From NCBI GenBank assembly GCA_964016885.1, contig OZ024740.1:185194001-185258000 (forward strand): a DNA stretch of 64,000 bases. Direction: 5' to 3'. The position numbers were made by a program, and so were the translations under genes. Source of the DNA: Eledone cirrhosa (lineage: Eukaryota). Under the pieces are notes generated by a model. It had not been told where the DNA came from. It searched no databases and saw nothing but the letters and a program-made list of their open reading frames with translations. Position 1 is the stretch's first letter, and each line of letters begins with the position of its first letter. This document shows positions 15,345 through 64,000 of this stretch, piece by piece.

Positions 15345-16150
15345 AACTAGCAGAATGGCCCGGCGTTGCTCGGAATTTGCTCTAGGGTTCTTATATATTT
15401 GATATATATTTATCCTTCTTGAGCCTCGTGAAGTAAATACATTTGTTTATATTTTATGTATGCAAAAATATCTGTACTCAAATACATAAATAACAGTACA
15501 GAAAGTACGGAATACTTCTGCCTCGGTTTGGTGTCTACATTTTGTGCTTATAAAAAAAGTTTGTCGTACATTACCAGGGTTTTTTTCCGTTCGAAGAAAA
15601 TCAATACTTTATCGCAAAATAAATACTTTTGTTTATATGTGTATGCAAAATATCTATACATGAATATATAATTATATATATATATATATATATATTAAAA
15701 TAACAGATTAAAGTTTAAGCAAAGAATCGCTGCTTTCACCCTTAATGGAATCTTCATAAACTAAAATAATAAATCTGTGAACGCAGAAGTAAATATTTCG
15801 AAAAACGTTACACGCTATATATATACACACACACACACACATACACACACCGTGTCATAATGACCTAATGCAGAGAGCCAGGCATACAGACAGATATTAT
15901 AAGGGTGCAACGTAATATCTATGTATCTATCTAAAAAGAGAAAGACTAAGAGAGAGAGAAAGGGATCGCTAAATCGCCTAATGCGGTCTCTTGGGCATTG
16001 AAAATTTGAATTTCTTTTGCTCAGAATACTCAATAGGACTATAAGTATTATCTGTGTAAAGTTTGAAAACAATTGGTTGGGTGATTGTCGAGTTTTAGTG
16101 ATTGTACAGACAGACAGACAAACAGACATTCTCTGTTTTAGTAATATAGA
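15345..16150 (+). mobile_element. Non-autonomous Helitron-like element, interrupted by later insertions
   Basis: 5' aactagcagaatggcccggcgttgctcgg; 3' aagtttgaaaacaattgg..(CAGA)n..cattctctgttttagtaatatagat, an architecture resembling Lep1/DINE-like Helitron derivatives. Confidence 0.55.
15710..15764 (-). ncRNA. Degenerate hammerhead motif, same family as 39657
   Basis: Minus strand: TAGTTT-ATGAAGA-TTCCATTAAGGGT-GAAA-GCA..TGC-TT-AAACT; core C3 mutated. Confidence 0.5.
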
Positions 16151-23388: not shown

Positions 23389-23544
23389 AATATTAAGGAT
23401 ACTATTTATGGTTATGTATATACTAAAACTTTTTATAGTTATATATATTTTAAACCCTAAACAGTGAAGGTCAGTAATTTATTACTACCTTATTACCAGT
23501 AAGATAAGTAGCTCAATGTAATAACATCAGTTGTTCTACAGAGC

Positions 23545-25208
23545 AATTATATAGAATTCACAAGAATCAAAGCTATGTTCAAAGCATTTATTCACTTACA
23601 ATTGTTTCATCCAAACCTAGGCTTGGAGTCTTCGGAGCGTTTTTCAATGTTTGTACACATAATTGACCGCCTTTCCAATGCAAGAGACATACAGATACAT
23701 ATATTGATGTACAGTGGAGTGACATATATTATACTATACTATTTTTGTACAGCAATTCAAATTCAAAATCAAAATTAAAATTAAAACAAAATTAAAACAA
23801 AATTAAGATACATTGGGCATTTAACACAGATAATGCAGGAGGATAGTTTGTTAGTCAGATGTAGTAGTTAGTGTATGCATTAGTTACACATGGGGCATGC
23901 AAGTGTGTCTCATTTATATATGATTATTGTGTGGCAGGGTGTTACATGTAATACAAGCACTTTAAGCGGGTAAGTAAGAGTATTATGGTGGTTGTAGTGG
24001 TAAGGTATTTTTTGTATAGAATTTTCTCTCTCTCTATATATATTTAAAAAAATAGAGGTGTGACACACGACTTGTGATATATTAGTAAAAAGGAAAAGAA
24101 AATGCTGACAAATTTTTCTCAGTGAAAAATAGTTTAATTAGGAATAAGTATAAATTAGTAATAAGTATTAGTTAGTATTCAGTTTTAGATTTAAGTTTTA
24201 CTGATGCGCTGGGTGTGGGTGGCTTTATCTTTAAATTTGTAGAGGGGAAAAATTCTAAAGTTGGGATGATTTTGGGCAGCACAGGTATCTCAGTGCTATT
24301 TTTCTGTATTCCCGTATTTTGATTTGGGATCTATGGACAGTCATGCGCTGGCGGTTTTAGTCTGGCATTTGTATTGTTCTCAACAACCTGAGCAAGTTAA
24401 TACATATATTAGGTTTTCTGATGTGCATGTGAAATTGTGTTTTACTATAACACGTTGTCCTTGTTTGAAATATAATTCCGAACCCTCTATTAGGTTGATG
24501 CATATACCACAGTTGAGTCTATCGTATTTTTTTTACTGTGGGTTTCGTTGTTGTGGTTGGCAGTACTTTGTCATGTGTTAGGATGTTTTTCATTGACTTA
24601 GATTGTCTTTTGCTCTTTATGATATCGTCTGTTCGAAGGATTTGGTTCATTCTATGGTCCTTTTTTAATACAGGGATGTTCTGGAGGATGGAGTCAAAGG
24701 CCTCATTGTTGAGGGGGTTGTGTGTGGATATGTATGGAAGAGCTTTTAGTTTCGGTTGATTAACTTTAGGGTGTCTAAGGTCCTGGGTACTGATTTTTAG
24801 GGCACGTTGCATTCCATTGTCAATTAGTGATGCAGGGTAGTCCCTCCTTATGAGTGTGTCCTTTAGTTCTTGTAAACGTAAGTAACAGGTGTTTTTATTG
24901 GAAACTATAGTACAGATTCTCTTGGCTAAGTTGTAGGGAATATTAATTTTAACGTGTCAAGGGTGGCATGAATTGAAAGGAAGATATTGCTTGGAGTCTG
25001 TGGGCTTGTAGTATATGTCTGTTTCTATTTTTTTGTTATTAATCTTAATGAGGATGTCGAGAAAGGGGAGTTGTTGATGGCTGTATTCCATTGTAAAATT
25101 AATATTCGTGTTCTGTCCATTTATAAGAGTGTGAAGTTCTTTAAGTTTCTCGATGTTTTCGTACCAAAGGATGAAGTAGTCAGCTAGATATCTCTTCCAG
25201 TTCTTTTC
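23545..25208 (-). mobile_element. 5'-truncated Penelope-like element (RT C-terminus, GIY-YIG endonuclease, 3' non-coding region with HHR)
   Basis: Minus-strand peptides WKRYLADYF, INFTME..LPFLDILI..TDIYYKPTDSKQYL.FNSCHP..NIPYNLAKRI, LPYISTHNP, and FTCTSENLIYVLTCSGC.EQY (GIY-YIG); several stops; (TA)n at the 5' junction; the 3' boundary is approximate. Confidence 0.85.
23593..23639 (-). ncRNA. Hammerhead motif downstream of the Penelope-like ORF
   Basis: Minus strand: CGCT-CCGAAGA-C-TCCAAGCC TA GGTTTGGA-T-GAAAC-AATT-GTA-AGTG; palindromic stem III ACAATTGT; core U4->C. Confidence 0.65.
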
Positions 25209-25243
25209 TATATATATATATATATATATGTGTATGTGTGTAA

Positions 25244-32677: not shown

Positions 32678-32713
<36 letters not shown>

Positions 32714-32760
32714 TAATAATAAATGTGAAGACTAAAATCTGAAGAGGGCTCGATAAGGAT

Positions 32761-39200: not shown

Positions 39201-39656
39201 GAGCTTGCCTTCACACATAAAGTGATTGCTGAATCTCCCTGAGACCTACATTAAAGGTACATGTGTATGAGTAATGTGTTTCTCTTACATGTTAATTTCA
39301 TGAAGAGGCAGCCCTATTCATAAAAAAACATGGACCCTCTGATGTAGGTACAACTATTATACCACCTAGAAATATAGATAATAAATGGTTATATGTTGAT
39401 TTTATTTTATTTAGCCCAAGGGAAAACCTGATTGAAATTTTTTAATCTAATGCATTCCTATCAATATCATCACATCTTATTGTATATCTTGGACTACATT
39501 TACAATGTATCACATCCTTTCTTTTTAATGATTCTGTGAAAACTATTGGTTCTGAATATGATCTTGATTCTCCTTACAGACACATGCACATGCACTCACA
39601 CACATATACATACATATGTGTATGTCTATATATATATATATATATATATATTTATT

Positions 39657-39711
39657 AGAGTTTCAGAAGATCCCGTTAAGGGTGAAAGCATCGATTCTTT
39701 GCTTAAACTTT
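39657..39711 (+). ncRNA. Degenerate hammerhead motif
   Basis: AGAGTTT-CAGAAGA-T-CCC GTTAA GGG-T-GAAA-GCA..TGC-TT-AAACTTT; 7-bp stem I; the core mutation differs from the 15710 copy, so the consensus is CTGAAGA. Confidence 0.6.
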
Positions 39712-39903
39712 AATCTGTTATTTTAATAAATATTTGCTCTACGGTTCTTATATATTTTGTTATACTTTGGGAGGCTCATGTTGCCAATAAGAAACACACG
39801 CACCAGTTGCTTTCACTTCAATTTATTATAATAAATTTATAAATTTAGGAATTTATAAATTTCCAGTCGGTTGGTTCCACAACCAGATGATTGTTTATAT
39901 ATT

Positions 39904-39946
39904 GTCAAAGTTCTTTCGTCACACATTCTATGACCTCTTCAGTGAC
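39904..39946 (-). ncRNA. Minimal hammerhead motif, left arm
   Basis: Reverse-complement copy of 40049-40091. Confidence 0.6.
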
Positions 39947-40048
39947 TGGGGATTCTTTTCTTTGTTTTTGTTTGTGTGTTGACACAACACACACACAGGC
40001 GTAGGACAGAACAAAGGAGAGGCACAAAAACAAAGAAAAGCATCCCCA

Positions 40049-40091
40049 GTCACTGAAGAGGTCACAGAATGTGTGACGAAAGAACTTTGAC
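40049..40091 (+). ncRNA. Minimal hammerhead motif, right arm
   Basis: GTCA-CTGAAGA-G-GTCACA GAATG TGTGAC-GAAAG-AA-CTT-TGAC; 2-bp stem III, CUU triplet, one extra G before stem II. Confidence 0.6.
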
Positions 40092-41362
40092 AATATATAA
40101 ACAATCATCTGGTTGTGGAACCAACCAACTGACCGAAAATTTATAAATTCCTAAATTTATAAATTTATTATAATAAATTGAAGTGAAAGCACTGGTGCGT
40201 GTGTTTCTTATTGGCAACATGACCCTCCCAAAGTATAACAATATCGGTTTCAACACACGTTTTCAGATAAAGAATCTTGCTAAACAAATTCAGAAACGAA
40301 AAATCTTATATATTTGATATATATTTATCCTTATCGAGCCCTCTTTTGATTTTAGTCTTCAAATTTATTATTATATATATATATATACACATACATACAT
40401 ATCTCATATTGATGATGATGATATAAATTATTCTATAAATTTCACCAGAGTTCTCTATTCTAATAAAGCACAGTGTATCTACAAGTAATCCGCACTGATG
40501 AAATGAATGGATATTTACAGAAAACCAAGTTGAACAAAATGTTTTTGTTTGCCATCACACTTTTACTGAATATTATTATCAACAACAACATGCAAGACAA
40601 AATGTTGTATAAAGCATATATGTGTGTGCGTGTGTATTTCTTGTAGAGTGATTGTGCTAATACATTACTCACATTTTGTGTTCCTGAAATAATATGAGCA
40701 AAATTAAGTAATACATCTCTAGGATTATAATAAATTATTTTTTCTTTCCTCTTGCTGCACATTTTGAAAATTGAATATCATAAGATCAGAATGGTAATGT
40801 ATAAATGTATTCGTACATCATTTCATACTAAATATTAATGTATTAATGCAAGGAAACCTCATATACTATGACAACAGGCATCCTTATAAGAACATAAAAT
40901 AAAATGGCTTATAAATATTGATTACTTCATATTTTAAGGCAGCAGAAGAAAGAAGTAAATATGATTATTGATGTTCATGCCTTTCTCAGGGATATTAGTA
41001 GTACTGAAGTAAAACTATTTTCAACAATGAAACCAAATATATCATGTTATAGAAAGGCCTGCTGTGAGGTTATTTATTTTCTCTGCCAAACTTATGAAAA
41101 TGTATATAAGTGAAGACAAATTGCAGACTTATCAGATATTTTCGTTTTCCATCAACATTTCTTCTGCCTTATGCTACAGGGAGAATTCTAAATTAGTTGG
41201 ATTCCACAGATAAATGAATAAAATCATTTCAACAATAAGATCAGCTTTTCATCAATAATTTATGGTTTCTAAGTATTACTAAACATAATGAATTCTTTCT
41301 GAGTCCTTTAATATAATACTGAAAATGTTCACAACAATCGGTCCAATAGTATAAATACTATA

Positions 41363-49110: not shown

Positions 49111-49940
49111 TATATTATAATAGAATATAAAAGAAAAACGAACACAGATATATAAATATTTGTGTTCAAATCGTAAGGGACCTGATTCGCTAAGATGAAA
49201 AGAATACTAACTATAGACAATTGGGTTCGCTTGTCTCAATTTAAGAAAAAATTAAGAAAATAAATACAAACCGGAATTCTGGTAACTACCAATCACCCAG
49301 ACAACTTGTTGTTTCGCAAAGTTAATTGTGAATATAAATACCAATCCAAGCTCATCAGTGGGTGAGGAATTAGTATCCTAGTCACATCTATCTATGCTAT
49401 ATATAAAATATAAAACAGCGCACATGGCATCCTAGCGAGTCTCACAAACTCACACCACTAAAAATAGCAGCCAGGTTTACTCGACATTTGAAATAGCTCA
49501 ACAAATTAACGGAGCCGAATATATTGAAGGTTTATATTGAGTTAGGAACTCAAAATAGTCTCTTACAACAAAATGGCTCTAAGAAAGAGATATTTCTGTG
49601 CCGTATATTATAATAGAATATAAAAGATTGGATTGGTATTTATATTCACAATTAACTTTGCGGAACAACAAGTTGTCTGGGTGATTGGTAGTTACCACAA
49701 TTCCGGTTTGTATTTATTTTCTTAATTTTTTCTTAAATTGAGACAAGCGAACCCAATTGTCTATAGTTAGAATTCTTTTCACCTTAGCTAATCAGGTCCC
49801 TTACGATTTGAACACATATATCTATATATCTGTGTTTGTTTTTTCTTTTATATTCTATTATAATATACGGCTCATAAATATCTCTATCTTAGAGCTATTT
49901 TGTTGTAAGAGACTCTTTTGAGTTCCTAACTCAATATATA
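49111..49940 (-). mobile_element. Retrozyme-like element: 493-bp terminally redundant unit plus a 311-bp inverted arm
   Basis: tatattataatagaatataaaaga at 49111 and 49604; 49628-49938 is the reverse complement of 49111-49349 joined to 49533-49603; TA-rich flanks. Confidence 0.85.
49293..49365 (-). ncRNA. Type I hammerhead ribozyme motif (canonical core)
   Basis: Minus strand: TCACCCA-CTGATGA-GC..GC-GAAAC-AAC AA GTT-GTC-TGGGTGA; perfect 7-bp stem I, GUC triplet. Confidence 0.85.
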
Positions 49941-49956
49941 CATTTTATATATATAT

Positions 49957-50147
49957 AACAAAGGAAATGTAGTAAGGAACCAGATGGACCATAACGCACC
50001 AAAGTACTCAATACTTAGGGTAGTAGAGTGGGTAATAGGGACAAGTATGACCCCGACGGCAGAGCTCAAGCCGTTTCGACGGCTAATTCTGGACTCAGAA
50101 TTAGCCGTCGAAACGGCTTGAGCTCTGCCGTCAGGGTCATACTTGTT

Positions 50148-50151
<4 letters not shown>
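49957..50151 (-). mobile_element. Hairpin element (56-bp arms plus about 80-bp tail) in (TA)n, copy 1
   Basis: Stem 50036-50151 with loop GACT; homologous to 57753-57940. Confidence 0.88.
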
Positions 50152-57677: not shown

Positions 57678-57741
<64 letters not shown>

Positions 57742-57752
57742 ATATATATATA

Positions 57753-57938
57753 TAGGAACAAGTAAGACCCCGACGGCTGAGCTCAAGCCATTTCGACGGC
57801 TAATTCTGAATTAGCCGTCGAAACGGCTTGAGCTCAGCCGTCGGGGTCTTACTTGTTCCTATTACCCACTCTACTACCCTAAGTATTGAGTACTTTGGTG
57901 CGTTATGGTCCACCTGGTTCCTTACCACATTTCCTTCG

Positions 57939-57940
<2 letters not shown>
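57753..57940 (+). mobile_element. Hairpin element (54-bp arms plus about 80-bp tail) in (TA)n, copy 2
   Basis: Stem 57753-57861 centred on 57807; tail ttacccactctactaccctaag..ttccttcgtt matches copy 1. Confidence 0.88.
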
Positions 57941-57974
<34 letters not shown>

Positions 57975-62907: not shown

Positions 62908-63137
62908 TATGCATATATATATATATATACATATATATGCATATATATATATATACATATATATGCATATATATATATATGCATATATATATATATATGC
63001 ATATATATATATATATATGCATATATATATATATATATATATGCATATATATGCATATATATATATATATACATATATATGCATATATATATATATATAT
63101 GCATATATATATATATGCATATATATATATATATATA
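62050..63137. repeat. About 1.1-kb (TA)n microsatellite punctuated by TGCA
   Basis: Direct reading. Confidence 0.97.
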
Positions 63138-63716
63138 TTTCAGTATACATATGTGGATGTACATTTTTAACTTAATTGTTTAAGCGCCAGTCATACAAAA
63201 GTGAGTTACAAACGAAACGAAATTTAATTTCGTTTCGTTATTTGTTTTTATCGTCTCCGCTGAACCGGTACGTACTCACGCTCTATGCAAATTAGTCTGC
63301 CCACTACTAATTTTCATAGAAAAAGCATATAACGATATGTGCTTTTACGATTCTCTAGAAAGGCCGGAAGATAGGTAAATATTGCTGATGAGATGTAACA
63401 ACATCGAAACTAGTCCAATATTCCTTGTCTGGCTTTCTGGAGAATAGAGGAAAGGTGTTTCCTCAAAAACCAGTATGACTCTAAAAACCGGTTTGTCTGT
63501 GTGTTTACATACAGAATAGCTGGACACTCACAGTAAAGTGACCAGTGAAAAACTCGGTACATCTACATATGTACACGTATGTGTATTCATATGCATACTA
63601 GTATTTCAGTATACATATGTGGATGTACATTTTTAACTTAATTGTTTAAGCGTCAGTCATACAAAAGTGAGTTACAAACGAAACGAAATTTAATTTCGTT
63701 TCGTTATTTGTTTTTA
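63136..63716 (+). mobile_element. Retrozyme-like element: 466-bp unit with about 114-bp terminal direct repeat, inserted in (TA)n
   Basis: tttcagtatacatatgtggatg...tttgtttttat at 63138-63251 and 63604-63716; central HHR. Confidence 0.88.
63351..63445 (+). ncRNA. Type I hammerhead ribozyme motif (canonical core, extended stem I)
   Basis: AATATTG-CTGATGA-GATGT AACA ACATC-GAAAC-TA-GTC-CAATATT (63378-63422); stem I continues via AGG/CCT and ATTCTCTAGAAAG/CTTTCTGGAGAAT. Confidence 0.9.
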
Positions 63717-64000
63717 TATATATATATATATACATATATATGCATATATATATGCATACATATATATGCATATATATATATGCATATATATATATATATA
63801 TACATATGCATATATATATATATATAAGAGCAGAATCCCTAGAAATAGAAAAACGCTCATCAGAAAAATTAAGAGAACGAACAAAAAGATCAACAAGCTG
63901 AATTACTGTCTGCAGCAACACATCAACTTGACTGCCATTTCATCACTAGAGATTAAAAAACATAACCTCCAAAACAACATAATGTCCCTCATCAACAATC

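What the first reader, a model, noticed from the sequence alone, without database searches (positions are those of the whole stretch)
39651..40372. Ribozyme element nested inside another ribozyme element with a 12-bp TSD
Removing 39758-40315 restores ..tttgctctacggttcttatatatttgatatatatttatcctt.., which occurs uninterrupted at 15375-15418, giving an empty-site control within the window. The insert is an inverted pair of HHR-bearing arms with a one-sided 60-bp extension. This layout and TSD size match what is known for Penelope insertions. Three HHR motifs on two strands end up within 450 bp.
Basis: partly seen in the sequence, partly recalled or inferred. Interest (0 to 1): 0.75.

Follow-up and report, generated by a model that had tools for sequence, protein, structure and literature searches.

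The report
Nested Penelope-type hairpin insertion
A 546-base mirror-image piece of one common repeat, likely pasted in by a Penelope-type jumping-gene enzyme, sits inside a copy of a second common repeat, and both carry predicted self-cutting RNA motifs; the layout is already described and the nesting is probably chance.

Summary
TCTTATATATTT is repeated exactly at 39746-57 and 40304-15. Between the copies lie two head-to-head arms (about 97% alike), each with a minimal type I hammerhead motif, and a one-sided tail of about 60 nt. The host carries a third motif.

The uninterrupted host junction stands in 1367 and 1375 reads of two other samples, while the insert's centre is near single-copy. 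So this is one nested insertion, not a 720-bp family.

Three corrections:
(1) The 15375 'control' is a 51-nt piece of the host's tail inside a third, unrelated repeat.
(2) The duplication is 11 or 12 bp.
(3) No RT/endonuclease ORF could be tied to either family, so Penelope membership rests on layout.

Inverted arm, tail, 8-10-bp duplication, centre palindrome and insertion into another Penelope copy are all published for a rotifer. Both families are abundant and AT-targeting. In read-through RNA the arms are predicted to pair, which hides the insert's ribozymes.

Side result: the host family's core has A at the conserved U4 in about 98% of this species' reads, against 4% in a relative. Presence/absence between individuals could not be tested.

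The parts
39652..39733 (+). Host repeat, hammerhead-bearing arm, 5'-truncated, flanked by (TA)n
   Evidence: 90% to 15769-15688; family copies run into (TA)n after 39733 in 2353 and 2509 reads and 134 contigs
39664..39704 (+). Host type I hammerhead motif, core CAGAAGA (A at position 4), helix I 10 bp, II 3 bp, III 3 bp; cleavage untested
   Evidence: A4 is the family majority in this species
39734..39757 (+). First part of the host's tail, ending in the left target copy
   Evidence: host arm and tail are contiguous in family reads (1582 loose ends before 15375)
39746..39757 (+). Left target-site duplication (11-12 bp)
39758..39981 (-). Insert, inverted arm without tail
   Evidence: family copies end at the matching point 40244 into (TA)n in 138 (X1) and 162 (X4) contigs
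39908..39942 (-). Minimal type I hammerhead motif of the left arm
39973..39993 (.). Centre palindrome, 9-bp stem with 3-nt loop; both arms appear to begin at about the same family position
   Evidence: fold; family upstream sequence read by eye from loose ends (inference)
39985..40240 (+). Insert, direct arm
40053..40087 (+). Minimal type I hammerhead motif of the right arm (helix I 4 bp, unpaired G before a 6-bp helix II, 1-bp helix III stem)
40241..40303 (+). One-sided tail, 59-63 nt, family sequence; an ATG at 40219 reads open for 28 codons through it (no homologue found)
   Evidence: depth; ends cluster near 40290 and 40301
40304..40315 (+). Right target-site duplication
40316..40372 (+). 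Rest of the host's tail, then (TA)n
   Evidence: matches 32760-32712; 2112 loose ends behind 15425 continue into it
15375..15425 (+). Uninterrupted 51-nt piece of the host tail, carried inside a different repeat that starts at 15346

Best explanation
This is a single insertion of a head-to-head pair of arms with a one-sided tail into the AT-rich tail of a second hammerhead-motif repeat, likely written by a Penelope-like element's endonuclease and reverse transcriptase. Shown: the duplication, the arms, the tail, that both repeats are high-copy families, that the empty host junction is common and the composite centre near single-copy. Inferred steps: (1) a GIY-YIG endonuclease nicked both strands 11-12 nt apart; (2) each 3' end primed cDNA on the family RNA, one at the inner start (equivalent to 40240/41) and one about 63 nt further down (40303), which leaves the tail on one side only; (3) both copies ran to about the same inner point and were joined head to head; (4) small deletions near the tip and a few point changes came later. 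The nesting has no function of its own.
For: Empty junction 39745 to 40304 in 1367 reads (139 starts, X12), 1375 reads (118 starts, X13) and 8 contigs of X1. Summed contig depth in X1 is 37-41 at the centre (39972, 39996), 5-7 in the unique flanks and 3e5-2.4e6 over host and arms; the tool warns this is no copy number. Family copies end into (TA)n at 40244 and near 40290-40301, matching the two outer ends here. Both arms share a letter found in about 1% or less of family reads (40131 G and 39868 C), which points to one template. The motif fits the PLE minimal hammerhead of PMC4209133 (results section read). The layout is as in PMC8557442 (passages) and PMC3846280 (passages: inverted pLTR, 31-bp tail, 8-10-bp duplications, junction palindromes, Pen2a inserted into Pen3). 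Two internal RT starts, nicks on both strands and AT-rich targets were shown in vitro in PMC11167929 (parts 1-2 of 4 read).
Against: No RT or GIY-YIG ORF is tied to either family. The 42-residue frame gave 1 hit among 1.84 billion proteins, an 829-aa protein of unrelated appearance matched three times, and 0 of 6 candidates scored in a second search. The tail is 59-63 nt against a published 30-40 nt, and its end is spread over 40290-40303. Only the bottom-line tables were visible (15 of 419 joints, 24 of 2255 loose ends, 40 of 127 differences), so a few composite copies are not excluded. The centre palindrome fits snap-back copying equally well. The top-strand nick lies at an ATT-containing site, but the bottom-strand nick does not.
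Confidence: 0.75

Rival explanations
1. Same nested PLE-type insertion, but made by one priming event: a single cDNA from the tail end folded back on itself at the CA-rich centre and copied its own strand, and the endonuclease cut the second arm at the fixed inner site.
For: 9-bp hairpin with a 3-nt loop at the centre; arms share a rare letter; self-priming is proposed from such palindromes in PMC3846280; endonuclease resolution is offered for the tail in PMC8557442.
Against: It needs a second, site-specific cut to explain why 138 and 162 contigs end at 40244, whereas two RT starts on both strands were seen directly in vitro.
Confidence: 0.13
2. The insert is a piece of a non-coding retrozyme (small circular RNA repeat) mobilised in trans by PLE proteins, not the end of a coding PLE.
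For: No ORF link was found; arm plus tail is about 320 nt, within the 150-450-bp monomer range of PMC7229834 (passages); earlier notes describe such families in this genome (unchecked).
Against: The hammerhead is of the minimal PLE type, not the canonical retrozyme type; there is no tandem unit at this locus and no go-back joint of unit length among the 15 joints shown.
Confidence: 0.07
3. The insert family targets the host's tail on purpose, so that ribozyme elements stack up at a hot spot.
For: PAc is proposed to nick its own pLTR as well as other AT-rich DNA; the site lies in the tail of another PLE-like repeat.
Against: Family ends shown run into (TA)n, not into host sequence. At 39756, 1550 of 1743 and 1633 of 1931 reads carry the free-arm letter, and the rest are matched by empty-host joints. 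The site is itself TATATA-rich, and host pieces cover 374 of 64,000 bases of the window.
Confidence: 0.03
4. The whole 720 bp is one composite element copied as a unit (or a MITE-like DNA transposon).
For: Both outer flanks are (TA)n; host and arms differ little from their family majorities at the listed positions, so the two events may be close in age.
Against: The empty host is abundant and the centre near single-copy; the ends are asymmetric, so there are no terminal inverted repeats.
Confidence: 0.02

Closest known systems
Endonuclease-bearing Penelope-like element insertions with inverted pLTR and one-sided tail (Adineta vaga Pen2a/Pen2/Pen3a, PMC3846280; general layout PMC8557442)
   Same: Head-to-head inverted arm, tail at one end, duplication of similar size (8-10 bp there), palindrome at the inverted junction, insertion of one Penelope copy into another (Pen2a in Pen3), AT-rich target.
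   Different: No ORF between the arms; tail 59-63 nt rather than 30-40; duplication 11-12 bp; clade not determined.
Poseidon_Ac (Anolis) two-site internal RT initiation, PMC11167929
   Same: Two fixed end points flank the tail; both strands nicked and extended; AT-rich target; the tail may be the start of the ORF (ATG at 40219, unproven).
   Different: Shown in vitro there, only inferred here; only one of the two nicks here has an ATT beside it.
Minimal PLE hammerheads, PMC4209133
   Same: Short helix I, long helix II with an unpaired 5' base, tiny helix III; pairs on opposite strands 100-700 bp apart are reported for Schistosoma.
   Different: The helix III loop here (AA) is not palindromic; the host's motif has a longer helix III and A at position 4.
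Metazoan non-LTR retrozymes, PMC7229834
   Same: Short AT-rich type I hammerhead repeats proposed to use PLE proteins; the host motif is nearer the canonical type.
   Different: No tandem monomers at this locus; no RNA data.

Membership tests
EN+ Penelope-like element | ORF with PLE reverse transcriptase and GIY-YIG endonuclease in the family | tested here: inconclusive
   None in the 546-nt insert; the 42-aa frame found no PLE relative; no genome held
EN+ Penelope-like element | Inverted 5'-truncated copy adjacent head to head | tested here: met
EN+ Penelope-like element | Optional tail at one end; family copies end with or without it | tested here: met
   Ends at 40244 and near 40290-40301; longer than the published 30-40 nt
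EN+ Penelope-like element | Minimal type I hammerhead motif in the terminal repeat | tested here: met
   Sequence and pairing only; Rfam gave no hit
EN+ Penelope-like element | Target duplication of variable length in AT-rich DNA | tested here: met
   11-12 bp; empty junction in reads
Hammerhead ribozyme | Self-cleavage | not testable with these tools
   No assay; no RNA run on record
Hammerhead ribozyme | Consensus core CUGANGA, GAAA, UH | tested here: inconclusive
   Met in both insert arms; the host has A at position 4
Non-LTR retrozyme | Tandem monomers of 150-450 bp | tested here: inconclusive
   Absent at this locus; not testable family-wide without the genome
Non-LTR retrozyme | Circular RNA expression | not testable with these tools
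   No RNA holder listed
MITE / DNA transposon | Terminal inverted repeats reaching both ends | tested here: not met
   The tail lies outside the inverted part; family copies end at two or three points

The most novel reading that the evidence does not exclude
The host family expanded in this species with a hammerhead core changed at a near-invariant position (A4 in 97-99% of what was laid from three runs, against 4% in a relative that has U4 or C4). It spread with a crippled ribozyme, which would be genomic evidence that self-cleavage is dispensable for Penelope-type mobility in vivo; if it still cuts, it is a natural A4 hammerhead variant.
Probability: 0.3. Interest if true: 0.45.

Novelty: new member of a known kind. 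Interest (0 to 1): 0.2.

Why it matters
As a finding it is an ordinary nested insertion. Its modest value is resolution. Most such insertions land in (TA)n, where duplications cannot be read (PMC8557442); here the target is a known family sequence, so the nick stagger (11-12 nt) and both outer ends (62-63 nt apart on the RNA) can be read almost to the base. That gives exact predictions for an in vitro test of two-site priming. The host's family-wide A4 core is a cheap test of whether these ribozymes need to cut.

Tried and rejected
- Whole genome: none held, so no copy counts or full-length elements.
- Rfam at gathering threshold: 0 hits.
- ORF link: 1 hit among the protein representatives, judged chance; 0 of 6 candidates among longer proteins; Pfam found nothing meaningful for 3 peptides. 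The 28 open codons are not significant in DNA this AT-rich (rough estimate 0.1, my arithmetic, no call).
- Metagenome scan with a 21-nt insert pattern: 0 loci.
- Presence/absence between individuals: the two RAD runs laid here have no depth in the unique flanks, and contigs break at the (TA)n tracts. A related species has both flanks but no bridging contig.
- Expression: no RNA holder listed, which is no evidence either way.
- Earlier notes by place and by sequence: nothing.
- Joint function of the three motifs: rejected. In the predicted fold of the read-through strand the arms pair end to end (-386 kcal/mol, z -32), and in either direction an arm's motif is made after its complement.
- Scrambled-order (SGC) hammerhead for the host: rejected by eye; the type I order and helices are present.
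- Literature: six searches listed no paper on cephalopod nested hammerhead insertions or on a U4A core. The library lacks most subscription papers, and no supplements were read; those of PMC3088659, PMC4209133 and PMC8557442 may list such cores or these families.

Full report
Setting. The window is AT-rich animal DNA (GC mostly 0.28-0.35) full of (TA)n tracts and retroelement fragments. Earlier notes call this genome an octopus; I did not test that. Those tables show only their best rows.

Observation. TCTTATATATTT is repeated exactly at 39746-57 and 40304-15, which chance seldom gives. Between the copies are 546 nt: a minus-sense arm from 39758 to about 39981, a plus-sense arm from about 39985 to 40240/44, and a tail to 40303. 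Each arm has a type I hammerhead motif with consensus core, 4-bp helix I, an unpaired G before a 6-bp helix II, and a tiny helix III. The host has a third motif at 39664-39704 with core CAGAAGA. My descriptor finds 6 motifs in the window and 1 in 30 shuffles together; Rfam finds none. The family arm continues with A at the position matching 39757, so that base may belong to either side and the stagger is 11 or 12 nt.

Is it nested? Yes. The junction that skips exactly the 558 nt stands in 1367 reads from 139 starts in X12, 1375 reads from 118 starts in X13 (other samples with the same species label) and 8 contigs of X1; it was not seen in the relative X4. The centre of the insert has summed contig depth 37-41 in X1, against 5-7 in unique flanks and 3e5 to 2.4e6 over host and arms (a rough contrast, not a copy number). 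At 39756, 1550 of 1743 and 1633 of 1931 reads carry the letter of a free arm, not of the host. So both repeats are abundant on their own and the composite is at most rare.

The host. Arm and tail form one family unit: 1582 reads run from the shared 51-nt piece back into the hammerhead side and 2112 run on into the tail's end (X14). Copies also end at 39733 into (TA)n (2353 and 2509 reads), as the copy at 15769-15688 does, so the host has its own optional tail of about 80 nt. A few joints show head-to-head host pairs (65, 32, 66 and 214 reads from only 1-3 starts each). The host is thus itself a PLE-type repeat. It lies on the strand opposite to the nearby host arm, inside a different high-copy repeat that begins at 15346 (937 loose ends) and continues past 15440. 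Its ends resemble Helitron-type non-autonomous elements; that is recalled from memory and not tested.

The insert. Family copies end into (TA)n at 40244 (138 contigs in X1, 162 in X4) and at 40301 (51 in X1); RAD reads break off near 40290 (3265 and 2518 loose ends). The two outer ends here match these points. Both arms share a G at 40131/39868 that about 99% of family reads lack, and a minority allele at 40105/39890, so they come from one template or were homogenised later. Each arm also has about three private substitutions and one small indel. Reading the loose ends upstream of 39982 and 39998 by eye, both arms seem to start at about the same family position and meet in a 9-bp hairpin with a 3-nt loop. 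The left arm lacks about 33 nt between two short repeats and the right arm about 8-10 nt. These reads start at a restriction site and may represent one subfamily. An ATG at 40219 is open for 28 codons through the tail, as expected if the tail is the ORF's start, but no homologue was found.

Mechanism. The best reading (0.75) is two-sided target-primed reverse transcription by PLE proteins from two start sites, with head-to-head joining. The steps are inferred from PMC11167929, where a purified PLE protein nicked and extended both strands at AT-rich DNA, began at two internal sites that bracket the tail, and did not need ribozyme cleavage (parts 1-2 of 4). Snap-back copying at the centre palindrome (0.13) gives the same product and is proposed in PMC3846280. 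Retrozyme cargo (0.07), hot-spot targeting (0.03) and a composite unit (0.02) are less likely. A read-through RNA is predicted to form one long hairpin that hides both insert motifs, so the cluster of three is unlikely to act together.

Comparison. Inverted arm, one-sided tail, 8-10-bp duplications, junction palindromes and one Penelope copy inserted in another are described in PMC3846280 (passages). The layout is general in PMC8557442 (passages). Minimal hammerheads, including pairs on opposite strands 100-700 bp apart, are in PMC4209133 (abstract and results). Retrozyme features are from PMC7229834 (passages). It works like an EN+ PLE insertion; strict membership is unproven for lack of an ORF. 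Earlier notes report the same layout many times in this genome; they are unchecked and not counted as support.

Side result. At core position 4 the host family has A in 3264 of 3326 reads (X14), 97% of contig depth (X2) and 99% (X5), but in 4% in the relative X4, where about 40% have C and the rest U (only copies at least 85% alike were laid). PMC3088659 notes a natural U4C variant with much lower in vitro activity, and the term U4A does not occur in its main text (passages). A search for U4A listed 2 unrelated papers.

Verdict. It is a new member of a known kind; interest 0.2. Polymorphism, expression, cleavage and clade remain untested.

Noticed in passing
window 39664-39670 (+) and 15757-15751 (-): The host family's hammerhead core has A at position 4 in 97-99% of laid sequence from this species, but U or C in a related species.
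   Followed up: partly
window 15346 to about 16150 (+): A different high-copy repeat, Helitron-like by recalled end motifs, carries a 51-nt piece of the host's tail (15375-15425), a 182-186-nt internal duplication, and a host arm inserted in its (TA)n (15688 to about 15810, minus strand).
   Followed up: partly
window 23430-25210 (-): Broken, 5'-truncated PLE-like ORF (RT thumb-like and GIY-YIG-like motifs read by eye; Pfam gave no hit for its longest open stretch), followed by a hammerhead motif with C at position 4 (23635). A third family.
   Followed up: partly
window 32712-32760 (-): Solo 49-nt end of the host's tail between two (TA)n tracts.
   Followed up: partly
window 49111-49952: Another inverted arrangement, with arms 92-96% alike; no hammerhead by my descriptor.
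   Followed up: no
window 49960-50150 and 57721-57964: Fold-back repeat with a short-loop centre near 50090, with a second copy in the window.
   Followed up: no
window 63094-63717 (+): Partial tandem (160 nt, 90% alike, period 464) with a consensus hammerhead motif at 63385-63415.
   Followed up: no
window 39982-40003, family reads: Family sequence just upstream of the arms resembles YY1 and NRF1 promoter motifs (recalled, not tested), so the shared inner end may be the RNA's start.
   Followed up: no
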